DNA from: Deltaproteobacteria bacterium
GTDB taxonomy: Bacteria; Desulfobacterota; Binatia; UBA9968; JAJDTQ01
DNA length: 64,000 bases
NCBI GenBank assembly: GCA_028818775.1
Contig: JAPPNE010000039.1
Coordinates: 8-64,007, forward strand
Direction: 5' to 3'
Shown: positions 9,609-33,741 of the stretch, piece after piece
Layout: each line of letters opens with the position of its first letter
How positions within the stretch are numbered: the stretch's first letter is position 1
Notes under the pieces: generated by a model
Told to the model about the DNA's origin: nothing
The model's database searches: none
What the model saw: only the letters and a program-made list of their open reading frames with translations
Translations under genes and position numbers: made by a program

Positions 9609-10041
9609 GAGTGCCTCCTGAAACCGCGTTGATGGTGTCTGCCCGAGACTGAGAGTTCGAGCCCCCCTTGCATCCTTCCACGGCCGGCGGGCTCGCCTGG
9701 AGCCAAACCGCTGGCGTCTCCCAATGCGTTGGAACCGAGCGGGAAGAATCGTGGCGTCGGTCGTGGCGCCGGGCGCGCTGCCCATGCCGCATCTCCGGCG
9801 AGCGCCGCGCTCGCTCGGCAGGCTCGCTCGGGAAGTACGGGAGCGCTAGAAGGATAAGGGGCTGCGTCGTGTCCGTTGCTCCATCTGAATTAGCCGGGAG
9901 GGCGGGGCAAGTCAATACTTGGCGGTGCCCGCACAGTGGCGGCCACGCGCTTTCGAGTCCTGTCGCCTGCCGCCGCTACATCAGGACGGGGTCGCGCGCG
10001 CCCTCGTTGGAAAACGCGCCCCCGTGTGGCAAGAGTACACG

Positions 10042-11208
10042 ATGGCCAAGCAGAATACGCGACAGAAACTCCTGCGCGACGGTATGAACGTGCTCCGGCG
10101 GGAAGGGCTGGAGACGGAGTCGCCGGACGTGACCGTGGTGGAAACCCTCGTGCAGCGGTTCGACGCCGAACCCGCGGTCTCCCTGGCCGTGGCCAACGTT
10201 CTCGGCCGCATCCGCGACGCCGCATCGGTGGAGGCGCTCAAGGGCCTGGAGCCGCGCGCCGGCCACAAGGAGGTCCGGCGCGAGATCCGCCGGTCGCTGT
10301 TCAAGCTGGCCCAGGCCGGACTCGGCGCGGCCGAGCCCGAGGGTTCGCGGGAGGAGGCGGCGGGCACGACCTTCAGTCTGGCCCCGGAGATCGAGGGTTA
10401 CCTGTCATCCGTTACCGGAGCCGGCTCGCGCATGGTGATCCTGGCGCGCCCCCAGCTCGGCGGGCTGATGGTGCTGCAGGCGGCCGTAAACGACCGCCGC
10501 GGACTCGAACGGCTGGGCGGCACCGTCATCCGGCGCAAGGAGCTGCGTCAGATGATGGAGGAGATGAAGGCCCAGGTGGGGGTCTCCGTCACGCCGGTGC
10601 CGTGGGAGTACGCCGATTGGCTGGTGCACGACGCCTACCAGAAAGTGAAGGACACGCCGGGCGAGGGGGTCGCCGACTATCCCGTCCTGCGCAGCCGCCT
10701 CGCCACGGCCAAGCCCGCGGAGCGCGCCCATCCGGTCTTCGATGCCATGAACGCGGAGGGCATCGAAGCGACCTCCCTGTCGGAAGTCTCCGACAAGCTC
10801 CTGGAGGAACCGGAGCTGCGCACGTGGTTCGTGGAAAAGGAGCTGATGGAGCCTTACCTCCAGCGCCTCGACGAAACCGAGCAGAGCCGCATCGTGCTCA
10901 ATCCCATGCAGAAGGAGGAGCGCTTCCGGGGCGTCCTGCGGGAAGCCGTCCAGGGCCTCTTCCTGGGCGACGAAACCGCGCCGGTGTTCGAGGCCCGCCT
11001 GGAAGACGCCGCCTACCATCTCCACGCCTCCGGCCGGGAGGACCAGGCCCGGCAGGTCCTGCGCATCGCCCTGGCCATCCGCGACCGCGACCTCGGAAGC
11101 CTGGGCGTGCCGCTGCTCGAAACCCTCGTGATGCGCAGCGTCGGCCTCTACAAGGAACAGGAGAAGCAGGAAGCGGCGGAAGAGCCGTCGCTGATCGTCA
11201 AGCCGTAG
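10042..11208 (+). CDS. Conserved hypothetical protein
   Basis: 388-aa ORF with protein-like composition and no recognisable motif. The start is uncertain. Confidence 0.45.
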   Translation: MAKQNTRQKLLRDGMNVLRREGLETESPDVTVVETLVQRFDAEPAVSLAVANVLGRIRDAASVEALKGLEPRAGHKEVRREIRRSLFKLAQAGLGAAEPEGSREEAAGTTFSLAPEIEGYLSSVTGAGSRMVILARPQLGGLMVLQAAVNDRRGLERLGGTVIRRKELRQMMEEMKAQVGVSVTPVPWEYADWLVHDAYQKVKDTPGEGVADYPVLRSRLATAKPAERAHPVFDAMNAEGIEATSLSEVSDKLLEEPELRTWFVEKELMEPYLQRLDETEQSRIVLNPMQKEERFRGVLREAVQGLFLGDETAPVFEARLEDAAYHLHASGREDQARQVLRIALAIRDRDLGSLGVPLLETLVMRSVGLYKEQEKQEAAEEPSLIVKP

Positions 11209-11744: not shown

Positions 11745-14228
11745 TTACCGGTACAGGTGGGCGTCGTCCACCGACGTCTCCGGCTTGCGGATCTGGGGGG
11801 TGAGGGAGGGGAGGCCGGGGCGGGCGCGGATCAGGAAGTCCACGGGGATGAAGTCCTTGAGCAGGGGGATGGGCAGGCGCACGCCGGCGTAGGGGCTGAC
11901 GGCATCGTTGCCTACCACCAACTCGTCGGCCAGGAAGGAATCGGGTGCGTCGGCGCGCACGCTGACGCCCGCGGCGGTGACGCTGCCGCGGACCGTGGGC
12001 AGGCCGTAGGCCCGCTGAGGGTCGGTTTCCTTGGTGCTCAAGATCTCGTGGTCGAGGATGGCGGAACGGTCGCGAGCGGCCCGGCCGGTCTCGCGGATGA
12101 ACTCCAGGTCGGAAGCGTCGGCGCCCAGGTCGCGGGGCTCGAACCGCATCAGGCGCGTAGGAAAGTCCTCGAGCCCGTCGGTTCCGACCGGTTCGCCGGC
12201 CCCGCGCGCGCCCAGCGCGTAGCGCTTCTCGCGCAGCAGCATCTCCAGGCCTTCGATGCGCGACCGTGCCACCGGGTAGGTGCGGGTCAACGCGCCCCAC
12301 GGGGTGTCGTAGTGCAAGAGGATCGCGTGGCGGCCCAGGAGGTTGAGCCCGGCTTCGGCCAGCTCCAGGTTGCGGACCCTGCCGTCGAACAGCGCCGGCT
12401 TGAGTCCGAGCCCCTCGGGGCCGTGGAGGCGCGGGTTGTCGGCGAGGTACTGCTTGCTGAGGCGGACGCCGCGGTTCTTTGGCGCCACCAGCCGTGCCAG
12501 CCGGCCCTTGGCCTCCTCGCCGGCGGGAGTGTCTGGGTAGTGTCCCAGCACCGCGGCGTAGAGTGCCCGTTGCCGGGTCTTGGACTCCGTCCCCTCGGCG
12601 GCGCGCAACAGCGTCCGTCCGGCCTTCTCCTCCAGTTCCCGCACCTCCTCCGCCGGCTTCTTCCCGGAAAGGCGGTAGTATTGGACCGCCTTGTGCGGAT
12701 GGCCCTGGCTCCTGTAGGCGTCGCCTAGCGCCTGGTAGATGTCCCCGGACTCCTGGGATTCCGGCCGGGCGCGGACGGCGCGGGCGGCCGCGTCGACCAC
12801 GGTCTGGTTCGACACCGGGTTGCCGCTGAGCATCTCCAATAGATTGCTGGTCACCATGAGGATGTTGGCGGCGCCCAGGGTGGCGGCTCCGGCGATTCCA
12901 TGGGTGATGATCGGCGCCGCCCCGATCATGGCGTTCTTTTCCAGGAAGTTCTCTCCCAGGAGCGCGAACCGCACCTGATCCAGGCGGTAGCGCGCGTGCT
13001 CCCGGTCCAGGGCTCCGCGAAGGTTGTATTCCGGGCTGTCGAGCAGGATGCGCGCGCGTTCGCGGGAGCGCTCGGAGGAGGCGTTGCGCCTGACGGCCGC
13101 AAGCGCGCGCTTGGCGTCCCCGTGCCGGCCGTCCATCTCCAGGGCGACGGCGGCGACGTCCCGGGCGAGAGGCTCCAGGCCTTCGCTGGCGTAGCGTTGT
13201 GCCATCTCCTCCGCCCGCTCCCGCGCCGCCGCGGCGTCCCTCAGAACCAGAGCGTGGAGCAGCGCGCGAATGTCCTTCCGTTGTTCGGCGTTAACCCCGG
13301 CAAGGTCGTCGGCGTCGGCCACGGAGTTGACTTGGCGCCGTCCCTCGTCCCGCTCCTTCCGCGCCGCTTCGATCTCCCGGAGCCGCTCCTTCACCGTTTC
13401 GGCCTCCGGCGCCACCGCGGCCGCCAGCCGGGCATGGAACTCCGCGTCGTCGATCCTGCCTTCCGACAGCGCGAGGCTCGCCTGGGTATCGTGCCCGTGG
13501 AGCCACACGACGGTCTTCTTGGCTTCGAGCGCGGCGACCGTTTGCTTTACCGCGTCTCCTTGCGGGTGGTTCGGGAAACGCGCGAGAAAACGCTTGTAAA
13601 GGACCAGGGCCTTGCGCTCGCCGGCGGGCATGCGCGGCTCGCGGCCCCGGAACAACTCGGCGAAGGCGGTGTCCACGGCGGCGGTGAGATACGAGCCCGA
13701 CACCCATCCGATCAGATCCACGGAGCCGAGCATGCGGTTCAGCAGTTCGTTCCAGCGGCCGATGTCGCTCTCGGCCACGAGCGCGTCCGCCTGTTCCAGC
13801 TCGTCCTCGGCCAGGCGGGCGCGGAGGAACCGGCGCCGCGCGTCGGTGGGAGCGGTCTCCAGGCTTTCTTGCAACGCTTTTCGGTAGGCGTCGCGGTCGG
13901 TGAGGGCTGCATGGTGCAGGTCCTGCAGGCCGTGGCTCAACCCGCTTGCCCGCTCGCCGCGGGCGTCGAGTTCGCGGTCCCTCTCCTCGACATGGCGCAC
14001 GTGGTCGCGCAGCCTCGACCCGTGTCCGCCCAAGGTGTCGCGCAGCGCCCGGCGCGCGCGCTGCTCGATTTCGTCGGGGAAGTAGCGCGCGTCGGTGACC
14101 GCGGGCGCGAAGGGATCGAAGCCGTGCAGCGGGTCCAGCATCCGCGGGTGGGCATCGCCGTGGACCTGAGCGGCGGCAACGACCGGCAGTGCCAGGAGCA
14201 GGCAGAGCAGCCCGGCGGCAGTCCTCAT
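11745..14228 (-). CDS. Large secreted helical protein (827 aa) with signal peptide, unknown function
   Basis: Signal peptide MRTAAGLLCLLLALPVVAAAQ. Highly charged Arg/Glu/Ala-rich helical-repeat body. Start ATG overlaps the stop of the upstream lipoprotein gene (ATGA). Confidence 0.6.
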   Translation of the reverse strand: MRTAAGLLCLLLALPVVAAAQVHGDAHPRMLDPLHGFDPFAPAVTDARYFPDEIEQRARRALRDTLGGHGSRLRDHVRHVEERDRELDARGERASGLSHGLQDLHHAALTDRDAYRKALQESLETAPTDARRRFLRARLAEDELEQADALVAESDIGRWNELLNRMLGSVDLIGWVSGSYLTAAVDTAFAELFRGREPRMPAGERKALVLYKRFLARFPNHPQGDAVKQTVAALEAKKTVVWLHGHDTQASLALSEGRIDDAEFHARLAAAVAPEAETVKERLREIEAARKERDEGRRQVNSVADADDLAGVNAEQRKDIRALLHALVLRDAAAARERAEEMAQRYASEGLEPLARDVAAVALEMDGRHGDAKRALAAVRRNASSERSRERARILLDSPEYNLRGALDREHARYRLDQVRFALLGENFLEKNAMIGAAPIITHGIAGAATLGAANILMVTSNLLEMLSGNPVSNQTVVDAAARAVRARPESQESGDIYQALGDAYRSQGHPHKAVQYYRLSGKKPAEEVRELEEKAGRTLLRAAEGTESKTRQRALYAAVLGHYPDTPAGEEAKGRLARLVAPKNRGVRLSKQYLADNPRLHGPEGLGLKPALFDGRVRNLELAEAGLNLLGRHAILLHYDTPWGALTRTYPVARSRIEGLEMLLREKRYALGARGAGEPVGTDGLEDFPTRLMRFEPRDLGADASDLEFIRETGRAARDRSAILDHEILSTKETDPQRAYGLPTVRGSVTAAGVSVRADAPDSFLADELVVGNDAVSPYAGVRLPIPLLKDFIPVDFLIRARPGLPSLTPQIRKPETSVDDAHLYR

Positions 14229-15166
14229 CGGCTGCGCCTCCGCATCTGTTCCATCATGCCTTTCAGGCCCTCGATCTTTCCGTTGGCTTCGAGTTTCTCC
14301 GGCGCGCCGTCCTGCTGTGCCACCTCGGTGTAGAGCTTCATAGCCGATTGGGCGAAGCCCTCGAAGGTCTTGATGTCGAAGGCGAGGCCCTCCGGCTCGT
14401 TCAACAGCGCATACTCCCGCGCCAAGCCGGTATAGTAGTCGCCGAAGTCCAGCACGTGGCGGTGATACTTCTTGCTTTCCTGGTGCCGCGACAGGAGCTC
14501 GCTGTAGGCCACGGCGACGAGCTCGTCGCCGTCGTTCAGGCCGCGGCGGTTGAGCTCCACGAAGGCGACCTTGGCGCGGTCGACGCGCTCCGCCTCCACC
14601 CGGGCCAGGGACTCCAAGGGCGTCCCCGCGTGACGCTCGATCAAAGCGTTCCATGCGCGCACGCGCTCGTCCAGCGCCTTGATGTAGTCGGACGCATCGT
14701 CGGCCGGCAAGGCGGTGGCGGCGATGCGCTGGAACGTCTCCAGGGCGTCGATTTGGCGGCGCGCCTGTTCCGCCAGTTCACCCCCGGCGCGCGCCACGCC
14801 GCGGTAGTGGCGGAGCGCGCGCCGGTAGTCCCTCAGGCGCTCGTAGGCGGTGGCGCGGGTGAACCCCACGATGTCGCGGTACCCGTTCCCGTGCTTGCGC
14901 TCGAAGTCCTCCAGCCGCAGCAGGGTGGCCTTGAGGATGCTGGTGCCGGTGACGTCCTTGGGCACGTCGAACCGGTACACGTCCTCGCGTCCGAGCCGTT
15001 GGAACTCGCTGACGATCTCCACCAGGTTCGCCGGCTGCGCGTAACGCGGCTCGTAACGCGGCTCCGGTTCGGGCGAGGGCGCGCCCGTGCGCGCGCACCC
15101 GGCCGCGAGCAGCAGCGCCAGCGCAAGCCCGGCGGCCGCCGTCCGTGTCGGGTCCGGCAAACTCAT
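14225..15166 (-). CDS. Lipoprotein (lipobox LLAAGC), unknown function
   Basis: MSLPDPTRTAAAGLALALLLAAGCARTG signal/lipobox. Only the last 313 codons of the 701-aa track ORF are protein-like. Confidence 0.6.
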   Translation of the reverse strand: MSLPDPTRTAAAGLALALLLAAGCARTGAPSPEPEPRYEPRYAQPANLVEIVSEFQRLGREDVYRFDVPKDVTGTSILKATLLRLEDFERKHGNGYRDIVGFTRATAYERLRDYRRALRHYRGVARAGGELAEQARRQIDALETFQRIAATALPADDASDYIKALDERVRAWNALIERHAGTPLESLARVEAERVDRAKVAFVELNRRGLNDGDELVAVAYSELLSRHQESKKYHRHVLDFGDYYTGLAREYALLNEPEGLAFDIKTFEGFAQSAMKLYTEVAQQDGAPEKLEANGKIEGLKGMMEQMRRRSR

Positions 15167-15558: not shown

Positions 15559-16497
15559 CTACCCGGCCTCCGTGATGTGGCGCAGGATGGCGTCCATGGC
15601 GCGTTCCGCGTCCGTGTCCGGCACCCGGCAGGACCCCACCACCCGGTGGCCGCCGCCGCCGTAGTGGCTGAGAAGGTCGCCGACGTTGACCGTGGAGGTG
15701 GTGTTGAAGATGTTGTAGCCCACCGAGATGGCGGTGGTGCCGGCGCGCTGCGGATCGCGCGAGACCTTCATGGAGATGTTTCCCTCGGGAAACAGCGTGT
15801 AGAGCAGGAAGCGGTTGGCGTCGGTGAGGTCCTCGGCGCCGCGCAGGTCGAGATAGATGACGTTGCCGCGAAGCTCGGCGTGCTCCATGAGTTGCCGCCG
15901 CAACCGTTCCTGCAGGCCGAGGACCCGCTCGCAACGCCGGTGGACCTCGGGGTCGTCGAGCACCTGTTCCAAAGTGCGGTCCCGGATCAGGGCGATCAGC
16001 CGGCGCCAGTAGGGCTCCTCGTCGCCGTCCTTGCCGTAGATGGTCATGGAGACGAGCACGTACCCGGCGGGGCGCAGCACGTCCTCGCGCGTGAGATACC
16101 CGCCGTCGATCTTGTCCGTGTCTTCGAGCAGCGCCGTGAACCGGTCGGTGCGCATCAGTTCGAGGCCCGGGCGGTAGCGCGTCTCCGATGCGCTCGGCAC
16201 CTCCGAGTAGTACTCGAACACCACGCGCGCGGCGCTCGGCGCGAGCCGGAAGGCGCCGCGGCCCGGCACCACCGGACGGTCGAAGCCCGCGGCCCCGTTG
16301 GTGAAGTGATGGTCGAACCACAGGGTGCACGCCGGGTGGTAGGGCAGGTTGGCGATGACGTCGCCCGCGCGGACGTCGACGGCGCCGTCCTGCATGAACT
16401 TGGGCTCGACGAAGAGGTAGGAGTCGATGTCCTCGACCGCGGTGATGAGCGCGCCGCAGACGATGCCGTCGAAATCGGGACGGGTCACGAGCCTCAT
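15559..16497 (-). CDS. DHH-family phosphoesterase-like protein
   Basis: N-terminal RPDFDGIVCGALI and downstream DHH-like His/Asp motifs (FDHHF). Start overlaps the ald stop (ATGA). Confidence 0.45.
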   Translation of the reverse strand: MRLVTRPDFDGIVCGALITAVEDIDSYLFVEPKFMQDGAVDVRAGDVIANLPYHPACTLWFDHHFTNGAAGFDRPVVPGRGAFRLAPSAARVVFEYYSEVPSASETRYRPGLELMRTDRFTALLEDTDKIDGGYLTREDVLRPAGYVLVSMTIYGKDGDEEPYWRRLIALIRDRTLEQVLDDPEVHRRCERVLGLQERLRRQLMEHAELRGNVIYLDLRGAEDLTDANRFLLYTLFPEGNISMKVSRDPQRAGTTAISVGYNIFNTTSTVNVGDLLSHYGGGGHRVVGSCRVPDTDAERAMDAILRHITEAG

Positions 16498-17612
16498 GCG
16501 CTGAGCACCTCGGCCACCGGGGTCAGCGGCAGGTTCAGGGCGCCGGCGACGCCGCCGTGGGTCACCCGCCCGTCATGGACGTTGAGGCCCCGGGCCAGCG
16601 CGGCGCTTTCCCGCATCGCCCGCTGAAGCCCCTTGTCGGCGATGGCCAGGCCGTAGGACAGGGTGGCGTTGGTCAGCGCATAGGTGGAGGTGTGGGGCAC
16701 CAGCGCCGGCATGTTGGTGACGCAGTAGTGCACCACCCTCTCCTCGACGTAAATGGGGTCCCGGTGGGTCGTGGGCCGCGAGGTCTCGGCGAACCCTCCC
16801 TGGTCGATGGACACGTCCACGATGGCCGCGCCGCGCTTCATCTGCCGCACCCGGTCGCGCGGCAGGAGCATGGGCGTGCGGTCCCCGGTGATGAGCACCG
16901 AGCCGATGAGCAGGTCGGCGTCCACGATCTCCTCCTCCAGGTTGGCGCGGTTGGACATGAGGGTGGTGAGCCGCCCGCCCAGGATGTCGTGGATGTAGCG
17001 CAACCGCGCCGAATTCACGTCCAGCACGCTCACGTCGGCGCCCATGCCCGCGGCCACCTGGCACGCGGAAGCTCCCACGGTGCCGGCTCCGAGCACCACC
17101 ACCTTGCCCGGCCGCACCCCCGAGGCGCCGCCCAGGAGCACGCCGCGTCCGCCGTGCTCGGCCTGAAGGGCCCATGCCCCCACCTGGAGCGACAGGCGCC
17201 CGGCGATCTCGCTCATGGGCGTCAGCAAGGGCAGCGAGCCGTCCTCCAGCGCGATGGTCTCGTAGCCCAGGGCGGTGACGCCCCGGTCGCACAGGGCCCG
17301 GGTCAAATCGGGCTGCGCCGCCAGGTGGAGGTAGGTGAACAGCACCAGTCCCGGTCTCAGGGAGGCGAACTCCTCGCTCAGGGGCTCCTTGACCTTCATC
17401 ACGAGGTCGGACCGTTCCCACACTTCGCGCGCCCGCTCCACCACGGTGGCGCCGGTGGCGGTGTAGGCGCGGTTGGCGATGTGGCTGCCCCTGCCTGCGT
17501 TGCGTTCCACCACCACCTGGTGGCCGTGGGCGATGAAGGCCGCCGCCCCCGCGGGTGTCAGCGCCACTCGATTCTCTTCGGTTTTCAACTCCTTGGGGAC
17601 GCCGATGACCAT
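16494..17612 (-). CDS. ald: Alanine dehydrogenase
   Basis: MVIGVPKELKTEENRVALTPAG N-terminus and Rossmann GAGTVG; the full-length AlaDH fold is recognisable. Confidence 0.9.
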   Translation of the reverse strand: MVIGVPKELKTEENRVALTPAGAAAFIAHGHQVVVERNAGRGSHIANRAYTATGATVVERAREVWERSDLVMKVKEPLSEEFASLRPGLVLFTYLHLAAQPDLTRALCDRGVTALGYETIALEDGSLPLLTPMSEIAGRLSLQVGAWALQAEHGGRGVLLGGASGVRPGKVVVLGAGTVGASACQVAAGMGADVSVLDVNSARLRYIHDILGGRLTTLMSNRANLEEEIVDADLLIGSVLITGDRTPMLLPRDRVRQMKRGAAIVDVSIDQGGFAETSRPTTHRDPIYVEERVVHYCVTNMPALVPHTSTYALTNATLSYGLAIADKGLQRAMRESAALARGLNVHDGRVTHGGVAGALNLPLTPVAEVLSA

Positions 17613-24628: not shown

Positions 24629-25624
24629 TCAGATGGAAAAGTCCACGTTGCCGACGTCAAGGCTTTCCTTCCACGTGGTCCAGAGGTTCGTCGTCATGTA
24701 ACGCGCGCCGAAGTCGGGAAACACCGCCACCACCGTGCCGTGGGTGAGGCGCCGGGCCACGGCCATGGCCGCCACCAGGGCGGCGCCGGATGATTGCCCC
24801 ACCAGCAGCCCCTCCTCCTGGCTCAGCCGGTAGACCATCTCGTAGGCGTCCTCGGTGGACACCGGGATCTTCAGGTCCAGCTCCTCCTCATGGTAGATGC
24901 CCGGAACGATGGAGCTGGCCATGTGCTTCAGCCCTTCGAGTCCGTGGATCTCGGAGTCGGGCTCGGCCGCGATCACGCGGATGCGCGGATCCCGCTCTTT
25001 CAGGAAGCGTCCCGCCCCCATCACGGTGCCGCCGGTGCCGATGCCGGCGACGAAGTGGGTGACGCCCCCCTCGGTCTGCCGGTAGATCTCGGGACCGGTG
25101 GCCTCGTAGTGGGCCTGACTGTTCATCGGGTTGAAGTACTGGTCGGGCTTGAAGTATCCGTCCGGGTCCTCCGCGACGATCTTGCGGCAGAGACGGATGG
25201 CTCCGTCGGAGCCTTCCAGCGGATCGCTGTAGACGATCTCCGCGCCGAACAACCGGATGATGTTCTTGCGTTCCTCGCTCACGTTGGCGGGCACCACCAG
25301 CCGTACGGGGTAGCCCAGCGCCGCGCCGATCATGGCGATGGCGATGCCGGTGTTGCCCGAGGTGGAGTCGATGATGGTGCGGCCCGGCGTGAGCCGCCCG
25401 GTGTCGATGGCATCCCGGATCATCCGGAGGGCGGGGCGGTCCTTCACCGAGCCGCCGGGATTGAACCCCTCGAGCTTGGCCAGCACCCGCACGCCCCGTG
25501 ACAACCCGCTGGTTATCCGCCGGACCTCCACCAGGGGCGTGTTGCCGACAAGCTCGACGATGCCGTCGACCTTGCGCGGCCGGCCAAGGGGCGAGGCGGC
25601 GTCCTGGTTCAGCGCGGTGAGCAT
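24629..25624 (-). CDS. CysM/CysK-family PLP enzyme (cysteine synthase / O-phosphoserine sulfhydrylase-like)
   Basis: PLP lysine motif PGGSVKDR, TSGNTG loop and GIGTGGT. Last gene of the riboswitch-controlled operon. Confidence 0.85.
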   Translation of the reverse strand: MLTALNQDAASPLGRPRKVDGIVELVGNTPLVEVRRITSGLSRGVRVLAKLEGFNPGGSVKDRPALRMIRDAIDTGRLTPGRTIIDSTSGNTGIAIAMIGAALGYPVRLVVPANVSEERKNIIRLFGAEIVYSDPLEGSDGAIRLCRKIVAEDPDGYFKPDQYFNPMNSQAHYEATGPEIYRQTEGGVTHFVAGIGTGGTVMGAGRFLKERDPRIRVIAAEPDSEIHGLEGLKHMASSIVPGIYHEEELDLKIPVSTEDAYEMVYRLSQEEGLLVGQSSGAALVAAMAVARRLTHGTVVAVFPDFGARYMTTNLWTTWKESLDVGNVDFSI

Positions 25625-25643
25625 GGAGCGTGCCGGGAACTCG

Positions 25644-25922
25644 CTAGAGGCCGCCGGCGATGGCCGGGACGATGGAGATGCTGTCGCCGTCCTTCAACGC
25701 GGTATCGACGTTCTGGAGAAAGCGGATGTCGTCGCCGTTGACGTAGACGTTCACGAACCGGCGCACCTTGCCGCTTTCGTCCATGATGCGCTCCTTGATG
25801 CCGGGGTGCTTCTGCTCCAGATCCTCCAGCATGGCCAGAACGGTGTCGCCGTTGACGTCGACCTCGTCCGATCCCTGGGTGAATTTTCTCAGCGGCGTAG
25901 GCACGCGTACACGAACACTCAT
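25644..25922 (-). CDS. MoaD/ThiS/CysO-like sulfur carrier protein (C-terminus ...AIAGGL)
   Basis: 92-aa beta-grasp-like protein with a GGGAGG RBS; ends Gly-Gly-Leu. Confidence 0.7.
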   Translation of the reverse strand: MSVRVRVPTPLRKFTQGSDEVDVNGDTVLAMLEDLEQKHPGIKERIMDESGKVRRFVNVYVNGDDIRFLQNVDTALKDGDSISIVPAIAGGL

Positions 25923-25980
25923 GAAACAACCTCCCTCTCCATCAGGATAAAACCCGGTTGCGACCTTTTCAATGGCGCCT

Positions 25981-27246
25981 TCAGCCCGCCTTCGCGTCCG
26001 GCCGCGTTGCGCGCGTCAGCCCGTCGTACAGTTCGTCGAAGTTGCCCAGGTCGGCGTCGATGCTGTACGGCCGGTCGACGATGTGCGCCACCGTCTCGAT
26101 GGTCTTGTAGCCGTTCCCGGTGATGGAGATGACGATGGACTCGTCCCGTGGAATCCGGCCCTGCTCGATGAGCTTCTTCGTCACCGCCACCTCGGTGCCC
26201 CCTGCGGGCTCGGTGAAGATGCCCTCGGTGGCGGCCAGCAAGCGGATGCCGTCGAGGATCTCCTCGTCGGTGACGTTCTCGCCCCATCCGCCGGTCTCCT
26301 TCAGCGTCTGGATGACGTAGTAGCCGTCGGCCGGGTTGCCGATGGCGATGGAGGTGGCGATGGTGTCGGGCTTCACCGGGTCGACGACGTCGGTGCCGCG
26401 CTTGAGCGCGTTGATGATGGGCGAGCAGCCAGCCGCCTGCGCGGAGTAGATGCTGCACGGCTCGTCCGGGTCCACCAGCCCCACCTTGCGCAGCTCCTTG
26501 AACCCCTTGCCCAGCTTGGGCAGGATGGTGCCTCCCGCCGAGCCCACCACGATGTGCCGCGGCAGCTTCCAGCCGAGCTGTTCGGCCACCTCGAAGGCGT
26601 GCGTCTTCGCGCCCTCGGAGTAGTAGGGCCTCAGGTTCACGTTGACGAACGCCCACTGGTACTTGTCGCCGATCTCGCTGCACAGCCGGTTGACGTCGTC
26701 GTAGGTCCCCTTGATGGCCACGGTGCGCGGGCCGTAGATGGCGGAGCCGACGATCTTCCCTTCCTCCAGCCCCTCGGGGATGAACACGTAACAGTTGAGC
26801 CCGGCGCTGGCGGCGTGGGCCGAAACCGAGTTGGCGAGGTTGCCGGTGGAGGCGCACGAGACGGTTTCGTAGCCGAACTCGATGGCCTTGGAGATGGCCA
26901 CCGACACCACCCGGTCCTTGTACGAGAAGGTCGGGTGGTTCACGGAGTCGTCCTTGAGGTACAACTCGTCGACGCCCAGCGCCTCGCCCAGGCGGCGCGC
27001 ACGGATGAGTGGGGTATAGCCCGAGTAGAGGCCCACGCGGGGCTCCTGGTCGATGGGCAGCAGCTCCCGGTAACGCCACAGGTTGCGGGCCCGCGAGGCG
27101 ATCTTCTCCCGGCTCACGCTATCGCGGATCGCGTCGTAGTCGTACTCCACCTCGAGGGGGCCGAAGCAGTCCTCGCACACGTGCAGGGGCGCCGTGGGAT
27201 ACTCCCGGCCGCACTCCCGGCATTTCAATCCTTTCACAAAGCTCAT
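25981..27246 (-). CDS. Threonine-synthase-like PLP enzyme with N-terminal zinc ribbon (second ThrC paralog)
   Basis: CRECG...CEDCFG zinc ribbon plus a ThrC fold (SFSYKDR, ASTGNLANS). ATG at 27246 overlaps the moeB-like stop (ATGA). Confidence 0.85.
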   Translation of the reverse strand: MSFVKGLKCRECGREYPTAPLHVCEDCFGPLEVEYDYDAIRDSVSREKIASRARNLWRYRELLPIDQEPRVGLYSGYTPLIRARRLGEALGVDELYLKDDSVNHPTFSYKDRVVSVAISKAIEFGYETVSCASTGNLANSVSAHAASAGLNCYVFIPEGLEEGKIVGSAIYGPRTVAIKGTYDDVNRLCSEIGDKYQWAFVNVNLRPYYSEGAKTHAFEVAEQLGWKLPRHIVVGSAGGTILPKLGKGFKELRKVGLVDPDEPCSIYSAQAAGCSPIINALKRGTDVVDPVKPDTIATSIAIGNPADGYYVIQTLKETGGWGENVTDEEILDGIRLLAATEGIFTEPAGGTEVAVTKKLIEQGRIPRDESIVISITGNGYKTIETVAHIVDRPYSIDADLGNFDELYDGLTRATRPDAKAG

Positions 27247-28031
27247 GCGTGACTCCTTTGGGACGCCGGCGGGCCCGCGGATGCGCCGCAAGCCTTGCAG
27301 CGCGGGTTCGGCGACACCGGCACCTTTCTTATTTCCATGGTCTTGGCGTCATAGGTGAGCAGGCTGTTCACCAGCAGGTGCTCCTCGAGGCCGACGATGT
27401 ACTTGACGGCCTCGGTGGCCTGGATGGATCCGATGGTCCCCGCCACCGCGCCCAGGATACCCGCCTGCTGGCACCCCAGGACCTCGCCGGGCGCCGGCGG
27501 CTCCTCGAAAAGGCAGCGATAGCAGGCGCTGTCCGGCGGCACCACCGTCATGGTCTGGCCCTGAAGGCGTACGATCCCCGCGTGGGAAAACGGCTTGCTC
27601 ATGGCCACGGCGACATCGTTGACCAGGAACTTGGTGTCGAAGTTGTCGCTTCCGTCGATGACGAAGTCGTACGGTTCCATGAGCCCGGCGGCGTTGTCTT
27701 CGGTCAGGCGCACGTCGTGGACCTCCACCTCCACCTCGGCGTTGAGCTCGCGCAGCCGCGACCTCGCCGATTCCACCTTGCGCTGACCCTGGTCGGCGGT
27801 GGTGTGGAGGATCTGCCGCTGCAGGTTGGAGAGGTCCACCGTATCGCCGTCCACGATGCCGAGCCGCCCGATGCCGGCGGCGGCCAGATAGAATGCCGCG
27901 GGGCTTCCCAGACCGCCGGCTCCCACCACCAGGGCACTCGCCTGGCGCAGGCGTATCTGGCCGGCGCCGCCGACGTCGGGGATCATGATCTGGCGGCTGT
28001 ATCGCTCGATTTGATCAGGGGTCAGACGCAT
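27243..28031 (-). CDS. MoeB/ThiF-family E1-like sulfur-carrier adenylyltransferase
   Basis: GAGGLGSPAAFYLAAAGIGRLGIVDGD Rossmann motif and zinc-site cysteines (CYRC...CKACG). No rhodanese domain. Confidence 0.85.
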   Translation of the reverse strand: MRLTPDQIERYSRQIMIPDVGGAGQIRLRQASALVVGAGGLGSPAAFYLAAAGIGRLGIVDGDTVDLSNLQRQILHTTADQGQRKVESARSRLRELNAEVEVEVHDVRLTEDNAAGLMEPYDFVIDGSDNFDTKFLVNDVAVAMSKPFSHAGIVRLQGQTMTVVPPDSACYRCLFEEPPAPGEVLGCQQAGILGAVAGTIGSIQATEAVKYIVGLEEHLLVNSLLTYDAKTMEIRKVPVSPNPRCKACGASAGPPASQRSHA

Positions 28032-28084
28032 CGAACGCGGGCTCCAGGCTAAGCTTCAACGACACTACTCAAGACACTACAAAC

Positions 28085-28118
28085 GAAAAAAAACCTCTTC
28101 CAAGATGAGAAGAGGTTT
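28085..28118 (-). terminator. Intrinsic terminator (expression platform of the SAM-I riboswitch)
   Basis: Minus-strand RNA aaccucuuc-ucaucuug-gaagagguu (9-bp stem) followed by U8. Confidence 0.65.
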
Positions 28119-28119
28119 T

Positions 28120-28232
28120 CTCCTCACCTTATCTGTCCCTTGCGGGCCGGAATTAGCACCTGCGTTCCCTTGGGATACGTGGTTGCTGTGGCTTCAACGG
28201 GCCTGTCCCTCCACCACTCTGGATAAGGTGTC
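28120..28232 (-). promoter_or_regulatory. SAM-I (S-box) riboswitch aptamer
   Basis: Minus-strand sequence ccuuAUCcAGAGuGGugGAGGGAcaGGCCCguuGAagCCacaGCAACC...GGUGCuAAuUCC...AGAUAAGg matches the S-box core; P1 is ccuuauc/gauaagg. Confidence 0.8.
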
Positions 28233-28281
28233 CAGTTGCTTTAAGCAGTTCCTGTACTTCTACCCGATTTCCTTTCGAAAG

Positions 28282-28365
28282 TCACGCCGCGCGCCGCGGT
28301 TCATGGACGGGCCGGTCGCCGAACTCGTGTCCACAACCCTTGCACTGGAACTCATAAAGAGGCAT
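28282..28365 (-). CDS. Small ORF resembling the N-terminus of an FmdB-family zinc-ribbon protein (27 aa, possibly a remnant)
   Basis: MPLYEFQCKGCGHEF with a strong AAGGAG RBS. It ends at a TGA; the same frame continues for 42 more codons and lacks a second CxxC. Confidence 0.2.
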   Translation of the reverse strand: MPLYEFQCKGCGHEFGDRPVHEPRRAA

Positions 28366-28494
28366 GAGGTGTTCTCCTTTCGGCGCGAAACCGTTCCGTA
28401 CCCGCGGTGGGAGGGCCGGCAAGGTAGAGCACTGCCAATATACTCCACCGCACGGCGGTGGCAAACCCCTGCGCCGGGAGACGGGGAGGTTGTC

Positions 28495-29595
28495 ATGCTG
28501 TTTCTCAACAACGACGATGTCGCTCGGGTCATCGACATGCCGCTTTGCCTGGACGCCCTGGAAAGCCTGTTCCGGGAACTGGCCAGGGGCGACGCCGTGG
28601 GCATGGGGCGCATGGACATGTACGTGCCCTCGGGGCAGGAGTCACCCTACCACCGTCTCGCCCTCATGGTCGGGGGCAGCCGCCAGGACGGCTACGCCTG
28701 CATCCGCATCATCTCGGACATGGTGAGCTGGCCCATGGAGCGGGGCCACCGGCGCGAGAACAAGTACGCCCGCGAGCCCGGCACCTGGTGCGGCCTGCTG
28801 CTGCTCTTCAGCACCCGCGACGGGACCCCGGTGGCCATGATGAACGACGGCCGCCTCCAGCACGACCGCGTGGGCGCTGGTGCCGGCCTGGGGGCCAAGT
28901 ACCTGGCGCGGGAGGACAGCCGCACGGTGGCGATGATCGGTTCCGGCGGCATGGCACGTAGCTACCTCGACGCGCTTGTGCGGGTGCGTCCCGTCACCAG
29001 GGTCAGGGCTTTCAGCTTGAACCCGGAGAATGTCCGGCAGTACGCGGAAGAGATGAGGGCGCGGCACGGGATCGAGGTGGAAGTCGCCGCGGACGCGCGC
29101 ACGGCGGTGCGGGGCGCGGACATCGTGTGCTGCTGCGCGTCCGCCATCGAGCCGGTGTTCTTCTCGGACTGGCTGGAGCCGGGCATGACCGTCATCGACG
29201 TCAACCGGAACTCCGTGGAGCCGGGCTTCCTTCACGCCGTGGACGTGGCGGTGCGCCCGGGAGACGCCACTCCCTACCTGGAGAACCCCCCGCCCGAAGC
29301 CTTCTACGCCCGCGGCGGCTACCTGGGTTACGTCGCCGGTCAGGAGGAGGAGCGGGCGCTGGTGCCGCGCGTGAACCTGACGCGCGAGATCGTGGACATC
29401 CCCAAGTTGCCCGACCTCATCAGCGGCCGGATCCCCGGGCGCACCAGCCCGGACCAGACCGCATGGTTCATGAACATCGGCGCCATCGGCCCACAGTTCA
29501 GCGCCGTCACCGGCGCCGTCTACGAACGCGCCCGCGACGCCGGCCTCGGCCGGGAGATTCCCACCGAGCTGTTCCTGGAAAACATCCGGGCGTGA
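28495..29595 (+). CDS. Ornithine cyclodeaminase / mu-crystallin family protein
   Basis: OCD_Mu_crystall-like sequence with a GGGGAGG RBS before the ATG at 28495. The 28105 start in the track would run through the riboswitch region. Confidence 0.8.
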   Translation: MLFLNNDDVARVIDMPLCLDALESLFRELARGDAVGMGRMDMYVPSGQESPYHRLALMVGGSRQDGYACIRIISDMVSWPMERGHRRENKYAREPGTWCGLLLLFSTRDGTPVAMMNDGRLQHDRVGAGAGLGAKYLAREDSRTVAMIGSGGMARSYLDALVRVRPVTRVRAFSLNPENVRQYAEEMRARHGIEVEVAADARTAVRGADIVCCCASAIEPVFFSDWLEPGMTVIDVNRNSVEPGFLHAVDVAVRPGDATPYLENPPPEAFYARGGYLGYVAGQEEERALVPRVNLTREIVDIPKLPDLISGRIPGRTSPDQTAWFMNIGAIGPQFSAVTGAVYERARDAGLGREIPTELFLENIRA

Positions 29596-31680: not shown

Positions 31681-31788
31681 CGACGCGGAAGACGCGGACT
31701 TCGGGCTCCGCGGGCTACCCATCGATCTTTTCCTGGACGGGTGCAGACCGTCCGTAGTCGTTTCAACGATCATTCAAGGAGGTACATC

Positions 31789-32295
31789 ATGAACCAAACC
31801 GTCGGCGCGAAGTTCCCGGATCTGGCCCTCGAGGACCACAACGGCAAGGAGCTGAAGCTGTCCGAGATTACCGAGGGCAAGTTTCCGCTCATCGTGGCGT
31901 TCTACCGGGGCTATTGGTGAGGGAAGTGCGTGGTGCAGTTGCGCCACCTGGTGACCCTTCAGGAAGAGCTGCCCGTGAGCTACAGCAGGCTGGCCGTGGT
32001 CAGCGTCGATCCGCCCGAGGTGAACGGCGCCCTCAGGGTAGGCCTCGGCGCGACGTTCCCGTTTCTCAGCGACCGGGAGTTCAAGGCCATCGAGGCGCTG
32101 GACATCGTCGACACCACGGACAAGAAGCACGGGACCCTGGCGATCCCGTACGCATTCTCCCTGCTGCCGGACCTGTCGGTCCACCGCATCTACAACGGCT
32201 GGTACTACGTGGGCCGGCCCACCAACGAGGAACTGCGCGCGGACATGCGCGCCATGACCCAGCAGTGCCGGGCCGACTACGACCCGCAGGCGTAG
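31789..32295 (+). CDS. Candidate selenoprotein: AhpC/TSA (Prx/redoxin)-like thiol:disulfide oxidoreductase with in-frame UGA (W-U-G-K-C)
   Basis: An AAGGAGG RBS precedes the ATG at 31789. The protein-like reading frame continues uninterrupted through the TGA at 31918-31920, which sits at the redox-active Cys position of WCxxC. A hairpin starts 9 nt downstream of the TGA. Confidence 0.6.
31930..31947 (+). promoter_or_regulatory. SECIS-like stem-loop downstream of the in-frame UGA
   Basis: gtggtgc-agtt-gcgccac: a 7-bp stem with one G-U pair and a GU-containing apical loop. Confidence 0.35.
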
Positions 32296-32396: not shown

Positions 32397-33443
32397 ATGG
32401 CCGTCATCGATGCCGATTGCCACGTCATCGAGTGCGAGGAGACCTGGGAGCACATGGAGGGCGAGGACCGGCGCTACCGGCCGCGCATCCTGGAAGCGGC
32501 GGACCAGTCGGACCCGTTGCGACGCAACGACTTCTGGCTCTTCGACAGCAACCTGGAGCCCAAGCGGGCGTTCCCGCCGGCATCGTCGGGCACCACCCCG
32601 GAGTCGTCGGAGCTGACGGACGTGGAGGCGCGCCTGCGCCACATGGACGTGCTGGGCACCGACGTCCAGGTGCTCTACCCCACGACGCTCTTGGGCTTGG
32701 CCACGCTGAGCCGTCCGCGCACCCAGGTCGCCATGTGCCGCGCCTACAACCGCTGGATGGCCAACGTCTGGAGCCAAGGCCGGGGACGTCTCCGCTGGGT
32801 GGCGACGCTGCCCCTGCTGACCATGGACGCGGCGGTGGAGGAGTTGCGCTTCAGCCGCGACAACGGCGCCTGCGGCTTCCTGCTGCAAGGGCTCATGGGC
32901 GAGCGCACGCCCATCGACGAGTACTACTTTCCGGTCTACGCCGAGGCCAGCCGTCTCGACATGCCGGTGTGCATCCATTCGGGGCTCGTCAACCATGCTC
33001 TCAGCGGGCTCTTCCACTCCCGCGCAACAGCCTTGTGGATGGCTAAGGTGCCCATCATCACCGCGTTCCACGCCCTGGTGTTGAGCCGCGTTCCGGACAG
33101 GTTTCCGGACCTGCGCTGGGGCTTCCTCGAAGCCGCCGCCTCCTGGGTCCCCTACGTCGTCACCGACCTCGGCGCCCGCCTCGACCGCACCGGCACCCGC
33201 AAGCTCGACGAGAACGTGCTGCGCCGAAACCGCTTCTACGTCGCCTGCCAGACCGAGGAGGACCTCCCCTACATCCTGCAACACGCCGGCGAGGACCACA
33301 TCGTCATCGGCTCCGACTACGGCCACGCCGACACCTCCAGCCAACTGGAGGCACTGAAGATCCTCCAGGCGAACGAAACGGTGACGCCGGACGCCCGTCG
33401 CAAGATCGTCGACGACAACGCCAGGGCGCTTTACGGGATCTAG
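32397..33443 (+). CDS. Amidohydrolase-2 family metal-dependent hydrolase/decarboxylase (paralog 1)
   Basis: N-terminal IDADCHVIE metal motif, TIM-barrel amidohydro_2 features and a GAGGGGG RBS. Confidence 0.8.
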   Translation: MAVIDADCHVIECEETWEHMEGEDRRYRPRILEAADQSDPLRRNDFWLFDSNLEPKRAFPPASSGTTPESSELTDVEARLRHMDVLGTDVQVLYPTTLLGLATLSRPRTQVAMCRAYNRWMANVWSQGRGRLRWVATLPLLTMDAAVEELRFSRDNGACGFLLQGLMGERTPIDEYYFPVYAEASRLDMPVCIHSGLVNHALSGLFHSRATALWMAKVPIITAFHALVLSRVPDRFPDLRWGFLEAAASWVPYVVTDLGARLDRTGTRKLDENVLRRNRFYVACQTEEDLPYILQHAGEDHIVIGSDYGHADTSSQLEALKILQANETVTPDARRKIVDDNARALYGI

Positions 33444-33483: not shown

Positions 33484-33741
33484 ATGATCCAGCCACAAGA
33501 GATCGAGGATACGCTGGGCCGGGTTTTCCCGGGCTGTGTCGTGCCGATGATCAAGGACCTGACCGGCGGGGGCGATCACTACCAGGTGGTGGTCGTGCAT
33601 GATTCGTTCGCCGGCAAGGGGCTCATCGACCAGCACAAGATGGTCTACGAGGCGCTCAAGGACGAGCTTGGCGACGAACGGATCCACGCCTTGTCGTTGA
33701 AGACCTTCACCCCCGAGCAGTGGGAGAAGTTCGGCTCCTAG
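33484..33741 (+). CDS. BolA family protein
   Basis: 85-aa BolA-like protein (GGGDHYQVVVVHDSFAG). Confidence 0.8.
   Translation: MIQPQEIEDTLGRVFPGCVVPMIKDLTGGGDHYQVVVVHDSFAGKGLIDQHKMVYEALKDELGDERIHALSLKTFTPEQWEKFGS

What the first reader, a model, noticed from the sequence alone, without database searches (positions are those of the whole stretch)
31789..32295. Candidate selenoprotein: Prx/redoxin-like oxidoreductase with UGA at the CxxC active-site position and a SECIS-like hairpin
A strong RBS and ATG at 31789 open a frame that is fully protein-like (FPLIVAFYRGYW) up to the TGA at 31918-31920, then continues in-frame as GKCVVQL for 125 more codons. Aligned to thioredoxin-fold Prx/redoxin proteins, the TGA falls exactly where the first Cys of WCxxC sits, giving W-U-G-K-C. 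Ten nucleotides downstream lies a 7-bp stem-loop (gtggtgc-agtt-gcgccac), compatible with a bacterial SECIS. The supplied ORF track reports only the post-UGA half (31930-32295). This implies the organism has Sec machinery elsewhere in the genome.
Basis: partly seen in the sequence, partly recalled or inferred. Interest (0 to 1): 0.8.

Follow-up and report, generated by a model that had tools for sequence, protein, structure and literature searches.

The report
Selenocysteine-containing Prx-like thiol oxidoreductase gene
This is almost certainly a real selenoprotein gene: a small thioredoxin-fold redox enzyme whose active-site cysteine is replaced by UGA-encoded selenocysteine, belonging to an already known class but to a branch that public annotation routinely splits into two fragments.

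Summary
ATG 31789 to TAG 32295 is one 168-codon gene interrupted only by TGA 31918-20. Pfam AhpC/TSA spans the TGA. Every full-length homolog has Cys at exactly that column. All 29 related loci that carry a stop there use TGA, never TAA or TAG, across about 10 phyla. A hairpin (31930-47, GUGGUGC-AGUU-GCGCCAC) places its loop exactly 16 nt after the UGA. The same hairpin occurs in 18/19 distinct U-x-x-C sequences but 6/56 Cys forms, with compensatory changes in 6 of 7 pairs. The protein models confidently as a Prx/Trx fold, with Sec at the N-cap of the active-site helix. The register is ResA/thioredoxin-type U-x-x-C, not a canonical peroxiredoxin. The class [quoted passage not shown] is already in the selenoprotein literature, so this is a new member of a known kind. 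This particular branch matches no curated NCBIfam model, and 87 of the 120 closest database clusters are post-UGA fragments. Relatives show C-x-x-D/E, U-x-x-D/E, U-x-x-C and U-x-x-U states, with the hairpin shifted downstream in the two-Sec forms. Untested: selA/B/C/D in the same genome; none lie in the window.

The parts
31776..31782 (+). Shine-Dalgarno sequence AAGGAGG, 6 nt upstream of the start codon
   Evidence: Read directly from the sequence.
31789..32295 (+). Full-length selenoprotein CDS (168 codons: 167 aa including Sec44, plus TAG stop 32293-5); AhpC/TSA-Redoxin (Prx/Trx) fold
   Evidence: Translation. Pfam PF00578 2.6e-14 over residues 5-123, spanning the TGA. GC3 0.88/0.94 either side of the TGA. 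AF2 model pLDDT 92, pTM 0.88. Foldseek best hits are BCP/PrxQ, AhpE, Prx6 and ResA.
31918..31920 (+). In-frame TGA read as selenocysteine (Sec44), the N-terminal nucleophile position of the U-G-K-C redox motif
   Evidence: Cys (TGC/TGT) at this column in all 56 Cys-form loci. TGA in 23 genome loci plus 5 metagenome loci plus L087. Aligned to the first Cys of ResA W-C-E-P-C.
31927..31929 (+). TGC, Cys47, the resolving partner of Sec44 (U-x-x-C)
   Evidence: Aligned to the second Cys of the ResA CxxC and to the peroxidatic Cys45 of AhpE. This position is D/E in Cys-form homologs and a second TGA in the UxxU clade.
31930..31947 (+). Bacterial-type SECIS hairpin inside the coding sequence: stem GUGGUGC/GCGCCAC (7 bp including one U-G), loop AGUU (31937-40) starting 16 nt after the UGA
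   Evidence: Present in the MFE and centroid folds; -10.8 kcal/mol as an isolated hairpin. Loop start +16 in 18/19 UxxC forms vs 6/56 Cys forms. 94.3% of cells paired, 6/7 pairs with changes on both sides, 0/500 shuffles reach this, slid controls 24-64%.
33484..33741 (+). BolA-family gene (85 aa), possible functional partner; context only, not an established part
   Evidence: Pfam BolA on the identical source scaffold. Immediately downstream of the Sec gene in L001, L081, L083, L087 and L012. In the window an Amidohydro_2 gene (32397-33443) is inserted between them.

Best explanation
31789-32295 is a single gene for a cytoplasmic, thioredoxin-fold selenoprotein of the 'Prx-like thiol:disulfide oxidoreductase' class.

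Inferred mechanism of decoding: during translation, the hairpin at 31930-47 is bound by the Sec-specific elongation factor SelB carrying Sec-tRNA(Sec). This recodes UGA 31918-20 as selenocysteine instead of stop. This step follows the established E. coli fdhF model and rests on conserved geometry and covariation here; it is not shown directly.

Inferred chemistry: Sec44 sits at the N-terminal cap of the active-site helix. It acts as the nucleophile of a U-G-K-C redox centre, and Cys47 resolves it by forming an intramolecular selenenylsulfide. The protein therefore works as a ResA/thioredoxin-type (seleno)thiol-disulfide oxidoreductase or reductant, rather than as a classical peroxiredoxin.

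Shown here: frame continuity, homology across the UGA, the Cys/Sec correspondence, UGA conservation, the conserved and covarying hairpin, and the fold.

Inferred only: actual Sec insertion, the selenenylsulfide chemistry, and the physiological substrate. A functional link to the adjacent BolA gene is speculative.
For: - **Continuous gene:** Pfam AhpC/TSA covers residues 5-123 across the TGA. Coding GC3 is present on both sides, and this is the only such TGA in 64 kb.
- **Cys/Sec correspondence:** all full-length homologs have Cys at this column.
- **Conserved UGA:** 29 other loci have TGA here, none TAA or TAG. They come from Thermodesulfobacteriota, Methylomirabilota/Rokubacteria, Binatia, Verrucomicrobiia, Anaerolineae, Poribacteria, KSB1, Bacillota and others. 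Four close relatives (79-92% nt identity, syntenic) keep the TGA and an identical hairpin.
- **SECIS, presence:** a stable hairpin with G in the first two loop positions occurs in 21/24 TGA forms vs 7/56 Cys forms, p = 2.6e-9.
- **SECIS, geometry:** the loop start is fixed at +16.
- **SECIS, covariation:** 6/7 pairs show compensatory changes, 94% of cells are paired, and 0/500 shuffles reach this. Amino acids change (VVQLRH vs VLQLEN) while pairing is kept.
- **Fold:** pLDDT 92, Sec44 immediately before helix 46-60; Prx/ResA structural neighbours.
- **Register:** U44/C47 align with the ResA CxxC, and Pro120 aligns with the ResA PLPTTF Pro.
- **Sec use in related hosts:** MAGs carrying family members also encode other known selenoprotein types with in-frame TGA, namely a TxxU Prx in L011 and a YeeE/YedE protein in L013.
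- **Known class:** PF00578 with UxxC/UxxU is listed in PMC13188914, PMC9312934, PMC2398784 and PMC1794560.
Against: - No selA, selB, selD or tRNA-Sec was found in the 64-kb window or in any fetched flank. Sec-decoding capacity of this organism is therefore unverified.
- The hairpin region's fold energy is not exceptional against shuffles.
- An SD-like GAGGG lies 6 nt before GTG 31930, so independent initiation of the 121-aa fragment cannot be formally excluded.
- There is no experimental evidence of selenium incorporation.
Confidence: 0.92

Rival explanations
1. Pseudogene or error: a TGC/TGT-to-TGA nonsense mutation, or a sequencing or assembly error, has inactivated an ordinary Cys-type redoxin gene.
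For: A single base change converts TGC/TGT to TGA. One relative (L019) is a decayed copy with an internal deletion.
Against: The TGA is present in 29 other loci from many phyla and in three independent assemblies carrying the identical window protein. Both halves keep coding GC3 and protein-level conservation. A position-specific covarying hairpin accompanies the TGA only.
Confidence: 0.01
2. True termination at TGA with a split gene: a 43-aa peptide plus a separate 121-aa protein initiated at GTG 31930, using the SD-like GAGGG at 31919-23. This is how public gene callers annotate it.
For: GAGGG lies 6 nt upstream of GTG 31930. Gene callers predict 43-aa and 121-aa ORFs.
Against: The fragment would lack strands beta1-beta3 and the active-site residue of a single compact domain. 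Most TGA-form clades have CCG-AAG after the TGA with no SD-like motif, and their fragment 'starts' fall at varying positions. Only TGA is ever used, although TAG is about equally common as a stop in this genome. Cys-form homologs are uninterrupted.
Confidence: 0.03
3. UGA read-through without selenium: the UGA is decoded as Cys or Trp by near-cognate or suppressor tRNA, for example in a lineage that lost Sec synthesis, giving a full-length sulfur-containing protein.
For: Sec machinery could not be demonstrated for this organism.
Against: A conserved SelB-type hairpin at a fixed distance is not needed for simple read-through, yet it covaries. Related MAGs carry other classical selenoprotein genes. 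TGA functions as a normal stop elsewhere in the window.
Confidence: 0.04

Closest known systems
Prx-like thiol:disulfide oxidoreductase selenoproteins (pfam00578, UxxC/UxxU; Kryukov & Gladyshev 2004; 'Prx-like 1' of the GOS and Sargasso surveys)
   Same: Same Pfam domain above threshold. Same U-x-x-C motif, with Sec at the N-terminal CxxC position. Coding-region bacterial SECIS. Many Cys homologs. Common in Deltaproteobacteria-type lineages.
   Different: Direct homology to the literature exemplar (WP_010940744.1) could not be tested. This branch has its own signatures: F-Y-R-G-Y-W-U, the invariant NGW[YW][YF]VGRPT..ELR C-terminal motif, and Cys homologs that are monothiol C-P-K-D/E rather than CxxC. 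It matches no curated NCBIfam selenoprotein model, and public annotation splits it.
ResA / TlpA extracytoplasmic thiol-disulfide oxidoreductases (e.g. B. subtilis ResA, PDB 1st9/2h1b)
   Same: Best sequence match among solved structures (E = 3e-5). The W-C-x-x-C register matches W-U-G-K-C, and the conserved Pro (PLPTTF vs AIPYAF) aligns. Structural match has TM (normalised to target) 0.82-0.86.
   Different: No signal peptide or membrane anchor: the conserved domain starts at residue ~5, so the protein is presumably cytoplasmic. NCBIfam ResA scores 20 bits against a cutoff of 170. It has a C-terminal helix and motif absent from ResA, and Sec instead of Cys.
Peroxiredoxins sensu stricto (BCP/PrxQ, AhpE, and the Sec-containing PrxU with T-x-x-U)
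   Same: Closest overall fold (Bcp4 3hjp TMq 0.81; AhpE, Prx6), and the Pfam AhpC/TSA family.
   Different: In Prx the catalytic residue occupies the second position (T-x-x-C/U). Here Sec occupies the first position (aligned to AhpE Thr42) and Cys47 aligns with the peroxidatic Cys. The Pro and Thr of PxxxTxxC are Arg40 and Sec44. Most family members have Asp/Glu at the peroxidatic position. An invariant Pro (P120) aligns with the ResA PLPTTF Pro; that this is where Prx carries its catalytic Arg is recalled from memory, because the AhpE alignment ends at residue 96.
SelL / SelL-related redox proteins (U-x-x-U diselenide motif; NCBIfam NF040769)
   Same: Prx-like fold. Sister clade members of this family carry U-P-K-U with one coding-region hairpin positioned to serve both UGAs. 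As I recall, this matches what was described for bacterial SelL.
   Different: The window protein has a single Sec (U-x-x-C). NF040769 scores only 20.8 bits (32.2 for a UxxU relative) against a cutoff of 120, so neither is a SelL-family member.

Membership tests
Bacterial selenoprotein gene (UGA-Sec recoding) | In-frame UGA inside one continuous, protein-like reading frame | tested here: met
   the Pfam domain spans the TGA, and GC3 is 0.88/0.94 on either side.
Bacterial selenoprotein gene (UGA-Sec recoding) | Homologs carry Cys at the UGA position | tested here: met
   TGC/TGT at that column in all 56 Cys-form loci.
Bacterial selenoprotein gene (UGA-Sec recoding) | UGA (not UAA/UAG) conserved among orthologs | tested here: met
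   29 other loci, all TGA. The second stop in the 7 UxxU loci is also always TGA.
Bacterial selenoprotein gene (UGA-Sec recoding) | bSECIS: stem-loop just downstream, apical loop about 16-37 nt from the UGA with G in the first loop positions (bSECISearch-type criteria, from my own knowledge) | tested here: met
   loop AGUU starts at +16, the hairpin covaries, and it is absent from Cys forms.
Bacterial selenoprotein gene (UGA-Sec recoding) | selA, selB, selC (tRNA-Sec) and selD present in the same genome | not testable with these tools
   None in the window or in fetched flanks.
Bacterial selenoprotein gene (UGA-Sec recoding) | Selenium actually incorporated into the protein | not testable with these tools
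   Needs 75Se labelling or mass spectrometry.
Prx-like thiol:disulfide oxidoreductase selenoprotein class (pfam00578, UxxC/UxxU) | PF00578 (AhpC-TSA) domain above the gathering score | tested here: met
   53.7 bits against a cutoff of 26.
Prx-like thiol:disulfide oxidoreductase selenoprotein class (pfam00578, UxxC/UxxU) | Sec in a U-x-x-C (or U-x-x-U) motif at the CxxC position | tested here: met
   U44-G-K-C47 aligns with the ResA C-E-P-C.
Prx-like thiol:disulfide oxidoreductase selenoprotein class (pfam00578, UxxC/UxxU) | Close homology to the literature exemplar WP_010940744.1 | not tested
   The exemplar sequence was not retrievable by accession with these tools.
Peroxiredoxin sensu stricto | PxxxTxxC active-site motif, with the catalytic Cys/Sec at the last position | tested here: not met
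   Arg40 occupies the Pro position and Sec44 the Thr position. Most family members have D/E at the peroxidatic position.
Peroxiredoxin sensu stricto | Conserved catalytic Arg on the strand facing the active site | tested here: inconclusive
   One search aligns invariant Pro120 with the ResA-type Pro (AIPYAF vs PLPTTF). The AhpE alignment itself stops at residue 96, so Arg-for-Pro equivalence rests on my recollection of AhpE Arg116.
SelL-related redox protein (NCBIfam NF040769) | Score at or above the curated cutoff (120 bits) | tested here: not met
   20.8 bits.
ResA/TlpA thiol-disulfide oxidoreductases | W-C-x-x-C motif and conserved (cis-)Pro | tested here: met
   (with Sec replacing the first Cys).
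ResA/TlpA thiol-disulfide oxidoreductases | Membrane anchor or signal peptide (extracytoplasmic location), and score above the curated family cutoff | tested here: not met
   The N-terminus MNQTVGAKFPDL runs straight into the domain. NCBIfam ResA scores 20.1 against 170, and TlpA 17 against 230.

The most novel reading that the evidence does not exclude
This may be an unrecognised, phylogenetically broad selenoprotein subfamily found in soil and groundwater phyla. It has no curated model, and 87 of the 120 nearest database clusters are split fragments. Its active site appears to have evolved stepwise, with Sec gained several times: monothiol C-x-x-D/E, then U-x-x-D/E, then U-x-x-C, then diselenide U-x-x-U. 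The SECIS moves from +16 to +29 when a second UGA appears. In the window's clade the protein may act with the adjacent BolA, as a selenium analogue of the monothiol-glutaredoxin/BolA pair.
Probability: 0.3. Interest if true: 0.55.

Novelty: new member of a known kind. Interest (0 to 1): 0.4.

Why it matters
**Annotation.** The gene should be annotated as one 167-residue selenoprotein. Public gene callers instead give a 43-aa plus a 121-aa ORF, and the same error affects at least 87 database clusters of relatives. A family-specific model would recover hundreds of selenoprotein genes in under-studied soil and groundwater phyla: Methylomirabilota, Binatia, Thermodesulfobacteriota, Latescibacterota and Tectomicrobia.

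**Biology.** The gene implies that this organism decodes Sec. The family is also a compact natural series (Cys/Asp, Sec/Asp, Sec/Cys, Sec/Sec) with matching SECIS repositioning. That makes it useful for studying how Sec sites and their RNA signals co-evolve.

It does not reveal a new mechanism.

Tried and rejected
- **Whole-segment folding energy** as evidence for a SECIS is uninformative in this 67% GC background. The window z-score is -0.6, and Sec and Cys forms do not differ in MFE. I replaced it with position-specific hairpin and covariation tests.
- **Sec machinery search.** ARAGORN found no tRNA in the window or in 32 related loci. Rfam found only a SAM riboswitch. Pfam on about 40 window ORFs found no SelA, SelB or SelD.
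- **Reassigned genetic code (TGA = sense):** rejected, because TGA ends about half of the ordinary genes.
- **Conserved operon partner across the family:** neighbourhoods differ between clades. Only BolA is linked, and only in the window's clade.
- **Profile search of PDB with alignment A2** was swamped by the cold-shock domain fused to some Cys forms, so I used hhalign against AhpE and ResA instead. ResA residues 3-102 agree with the PDB alignment.
- **Metagenome scan** with the single protein returned only 6 loci.
- **Promoter and terminator scan** around the gene found nothing useful.

Full report
**1. The observation**

- AAGGAGG (31776-82) lies 6 nt before ATG 31789.
- The frame reads MNQTVGAKFPDLALEDHNGKELKLSEITEGKFPLIVAFYRGYW, then TGA (31918-20), then GKCVVQL..., and stays open to TAG 32293-5.
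- The mechanical ORF list holds only the post-TGA piece (31930-32295, GTG start).
- The stem GTGGTGC/GCGCCAC (31930-36/31941-47) with loop AGTT follows 9 nt after the TGA.

The window is 67% GC, and TGA terminates about half of its ordinary genes, so the code is standard. Third-position GC is 0.88 in the 43 upstream codons and 0.94 downstream, against 0.58 and 0.35 in the other two frames. A systematic scan found no other TGA in the 64 kb with coding-like sequence on both sides.

**2. One gene, with Cys in homologs at the UGA**

Pfam AhpC/TSA (2.6e-14) and Redoxin match residues 5-123, straight across the TGA.

A search of 5.8 billion proteins gave 436 hits. Of the best 120 clusters, 87 are 113-132 aa and cover only about 65-72% of the query. 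All of them begin 4-12 residues after the Sec column (MVQLRH..., MQLRLL...). The full-length hits (~50% identity) all show F-x-R-G-x-x-C-P-K/R-D/E, with Cys exactly at the TGA column.

Public gene calls on three contigs, including the window's own source scaffold (ENA ERZ23495468 scaffold_522, 102 kb), split the gene into 43-44 aa and 121-124 aa ORFs.

**3. Conservation of the UGA**

Eighty loci from GTDB species genomes and six from metagenomes were fetched and classified by the codon at the Sec column.
- 56 loci have TGC/TGT.
- 28 have TGA; L087 is a further one.
- None has TAA or TAG.

The active site occurs in four states:

| State | Loci | Taxa |
|---|---|---|
| C-P-K/R-D/E | most loci | many phyla |
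| U-P-K-D/E | L067, L073, L075 | Bacillota, Poribacteria, KSB1 |
| U-x-K-C | window, L001-L013, L021, L081-L084 | Thermodesulfobacteriota, Methylomirabilota/Rokubacteria, Binatia, Verrucomicrobiia, Anaerolineae |
| U-P-K-U (two TGAs three codons apart) | L014-L018, L020, L085 | Thermoanaerobaculia, Latescibacterota, Tectomicrobia, Acidimicrobiales and others |

The N-terminal 43 codons are conserved as protein in all of them.

The window is collinear over 20 kb, at 79-92% nucleotide identity, with a complete Thermodesulfobacteriota MAG chromosome (L001, OZ220712.1) and with metagenome contigs. All keep the TGA.

A neighbour-joining tree places the window in a U-[G/A]-K-C subclade of one large Sec clade, which also contains the UxxU clade. 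At least three further Sec occurrences are nested inside Cys clades. This agrees with the general Cys-to-Sec trend reported in PMC1794560.

**4. The SECIS**

Whole-segment MFE is uninformative here. Position-specific tests are decisive.

- *Hairpin scan.* I searched for hairpins with a perfect stem of at least 4 bp, a 3-8 nt loop with G in its first two positions, and a loop start 13-40 nt after the codon. A hairpin of -6 kcal/mol or better occurs in 21/24 TGA forms against 7/56 Cys forms (Mann-Whitney p = 2.6e-9).
- *Fixed geometry.* In U-x-x-C forms the loop starts exactly 16 nt after the UGA. The 5' arm is fixed and the loop is 4, 6 or 7 nt long (AGUU, AGUUGC, AGGUCC, AGGUCAG). The five inner pairs are formed in 69/70 cells over 14 distinct hairpins, with 2-3 pair types each.
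- *Matched control.* A stem of at least 5 bp with loop start +16 occurs in 18/19 distinct UxxC sequences against 6/56 Cys forms. In the UxxU clade the hairpin instead sits at +28/29 (7/7, against 2-6/56), which is 20-21 nt after the second UGA.
- *Dedicated tool, AGUU-loop group (10 sequences).* 94.3% of cells are paired, against 68.5 +/- 4.1 in shuffles (0/500 reach it). Six of 7 pairs change on both sides. Slid-partner controls give 24-64%.
- *Dedicated tool, UxxU group.* 95.9% of cells are paired, with two compensatory pairs. Slid controls give 14-63%.

The encoded amino acids change (VVQLRH, VLQLEN, QVQLRL, RRQLTN) while pairing is preserved. The constraint is therefore on the RNA.

The apex (G-C-closed stem, loop A-G-[G/U]-U) resembles the E. 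coli fdhF SECIS apex. That comparison rests on my own knowledge and was not tested here.

**5. What the protein is**

AlphaFold2 on a 55-sequence alignment gives pLDDT 92.1 and pTM 0.88. Sec44 lies immediately before helix 46-60. Foldseek against the PDB finds BCP/PrxQ (3hjp, TMq 0.81), AhpE, Prx6 and ResA. By sequence, the nearest solved structure is B. subtilis ResA (E = 3e-5), with U44 and C47 on its C-E-P-C.

Profile alignment gives the register:
- U44 aligns with Thr42 of AhpE, and C47 with the peroxidatic Cys45 of AhpE.
- The invariant Pro120 (AIPYAF) aligns with the ResA PLPTTF Pro.

The protein therefore has the thioredoxin/ResA-type architecture (nucleophile first, resolving residue at +3, conserved Pro). 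It lacks the Pro/Thr signature of true peroxiredoxins. The catalytic-Arg position could not be aligned directly, because the AhpE alignment ends at residue 96. In most relatives the 'peroxidatic' position is Asp or Glu.

There is no signal peptide or membrane anchor. The most likely chemistry is a Sec44-Cys47 selenenylsulfide redox couple in a cytoplasmic oxidoreductase. This is inference.

**6. Comparison with what is known**

[quoted passage not shown] It is common in Deltaproteobacteria, and 'Prx-like 1' (pfam00578, UxxC) is among the most abundant families in the GOS data (PMC13188914, PMC9312934, PMC2398784, PMC1794560). By those reviews' own criteria (domain plus motif), the window gene belongs to this class.

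It is not captured by any curated NCBIfam model:

| NCBIfam model | Score (bits) | Cutoff (bits) |
|---|---|---|
| SelL-related (NF040769) | 20.8 | 120 |
| ResA | 20.1 | 170 |
| WAxxUGC | 19 | 300 |

This explains the systematic mis-annotation. Whether earlier surveys already counted this branch could not be tested.

**7. Sec machinery**

No tRNA-Sec, SelA, SelB or SelD was found in the window or in any flank. This is the main untested point.

Indirect support exists. Two Rokubacteria/Methylomirabilota MAG contigs that carry family members also carry other classical selenoprotein genes with in-frame TGA and downstream hairpins: a secreted T-x-x-U peroxiredoxin (L011; AhpC-TSA 5e-31 across the TGA) and a YeeE/YedE protein (L013; Sulf_transp 6e-13). 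Deltaproteobacteria-type lineages are the richest known Sec users (PMC1794560).

**8. Context**

The gene lies between an MR/MLE enolase-superfamily gene and an amidohydrolase, in an amino-acid and organic-acid catabolism region. No neighbour is conserved family-wide.

A BolA gene is immediately downstream throughout the U-[G/A]-K-C clade, including L012 at 58% BolA identity. In the window an inserted amidohydrolase separates the two.

**9. Verdict**

The gene is a genuine selenoprotein gene with confidence of about 0.92. It is a new member of a known kind, of moderate interest. The main value is correcting annotation, together with the family-level series of active-site and SECIS states.

Noticed in passing
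L014:10115-10126, L015:10115-10126, L016:10127-10138, L017:10112-10123, L018:10115-10126, L020:10127-10138, L085:858-869: A sister clade of the family has two in-frame TGAs three codons apart (W-U-P-K-U, a putative diselenide motif) in MAGs of at least six phyla. Its conserved hairpin (GGAACUGGUCCAGUUCC, with compensatory variants) is shifted to +28/29 from the first UGA, which is +20/21 from the second. The proteins score far below the NCBIfam SelL-related cutoff (32 bits against 120).
   Followed up: partly
L067:4077, L073:2467, L075:10115: Three loci have Sec with Asp/Glu at +3 (U-P-K-D/E) and are nested in Cys clades. This suggests independent Cys-to-Sec switches and an intermediate state before the +3 Cys is gained. 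L073 (UPKD) and L021 (UPKC) share an identical hairpin.
   Followed up: partly
window 33484-33741 (+); L001:10556-10810; L087:10473-10724; L012:10565-10816: A BolA-family gene sits directly downstream of the Sec gene throughout the U-[G/A]-K-C clade. In the window an Amidohydro_2 gene (32397-33443) is inserted between them. It may be a redox partnership analogous to monothiol glutaredoxin-BolA; this is speculative.
   Followed up: partly
L011:13749 (TGA) and L013:7786 (TGA): Two other unannotated selenoprotein candidates lie on contigs that carry family members. One is a secreted peroxiredoxin with GAFTPT-U-T (the T-x-x-U motif). The other is a YeeE/YedE sulphur-transport protein with GF-U-PGT. 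Both have hairpins just after the TGA, and Pfam matches span the TGA in both.
   Followed up: yes
P0037, P0040, P0053, P0055, P0058, P0104 and others; alignment A2: Many Cys-form homologs (~275 aa) are fused at the C-terminus to a cold-shock domain (PF00313, strong matches to CspB structures). This is an unusual redoxin-CSD architecture of unknown meaning.
   Followed up: no
window 28126-28229 (-): A SAM riboswitch (Rfam RF00162, 82.8 bits) lies upstream of a minus-strand ThiF - NinF/PALP - ThiS - PALP gene set (about 24629-28055). This looks like SAM-regulated, sulfur-carrier-protein-dependent Cys/Met-type biosynthesis. The long + strand ORF call 28105-29595 overlaps the riboswitch, but its OCD/mu-crystallin domain starts only at residue 227, so the true start is probably much later.
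   Followed up: no
window 11745-14654 (-): A 969-aa ORF (GC3 0.81; Ala/Arg/Leu-rich; internal signal-peptide-like MRTAAGLLCLLLALPVVAAAQ) has no Pfam match at 1e-5. Likewise 9889-11208 (+) and 15559-16572 (-) have no Pfam match.
   Followed up: no
L019:~9950-10366: A Rokubacteria MAG copy has an in-frame internal deletion that joins MRADLVVGSRLPDLE directly to CAVQVRHL, removing about 30 residues including the Sec codon. It is probably a decayed copy or an assembly artefact.
   Followed up: partly
window 31919-31923: In the window's clade the codons after the UGA are GGG-AAG (Gly-Lys) instead of CCG-AAG (Pro-Lys). This creates an SD-like GAGGG 6 nt before GTG 31930, and it is why gene callers readily start the 121-aa fragment there. 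Whether it affects ribosome pausing or Sec insertion is unknown.
   Followed up: no
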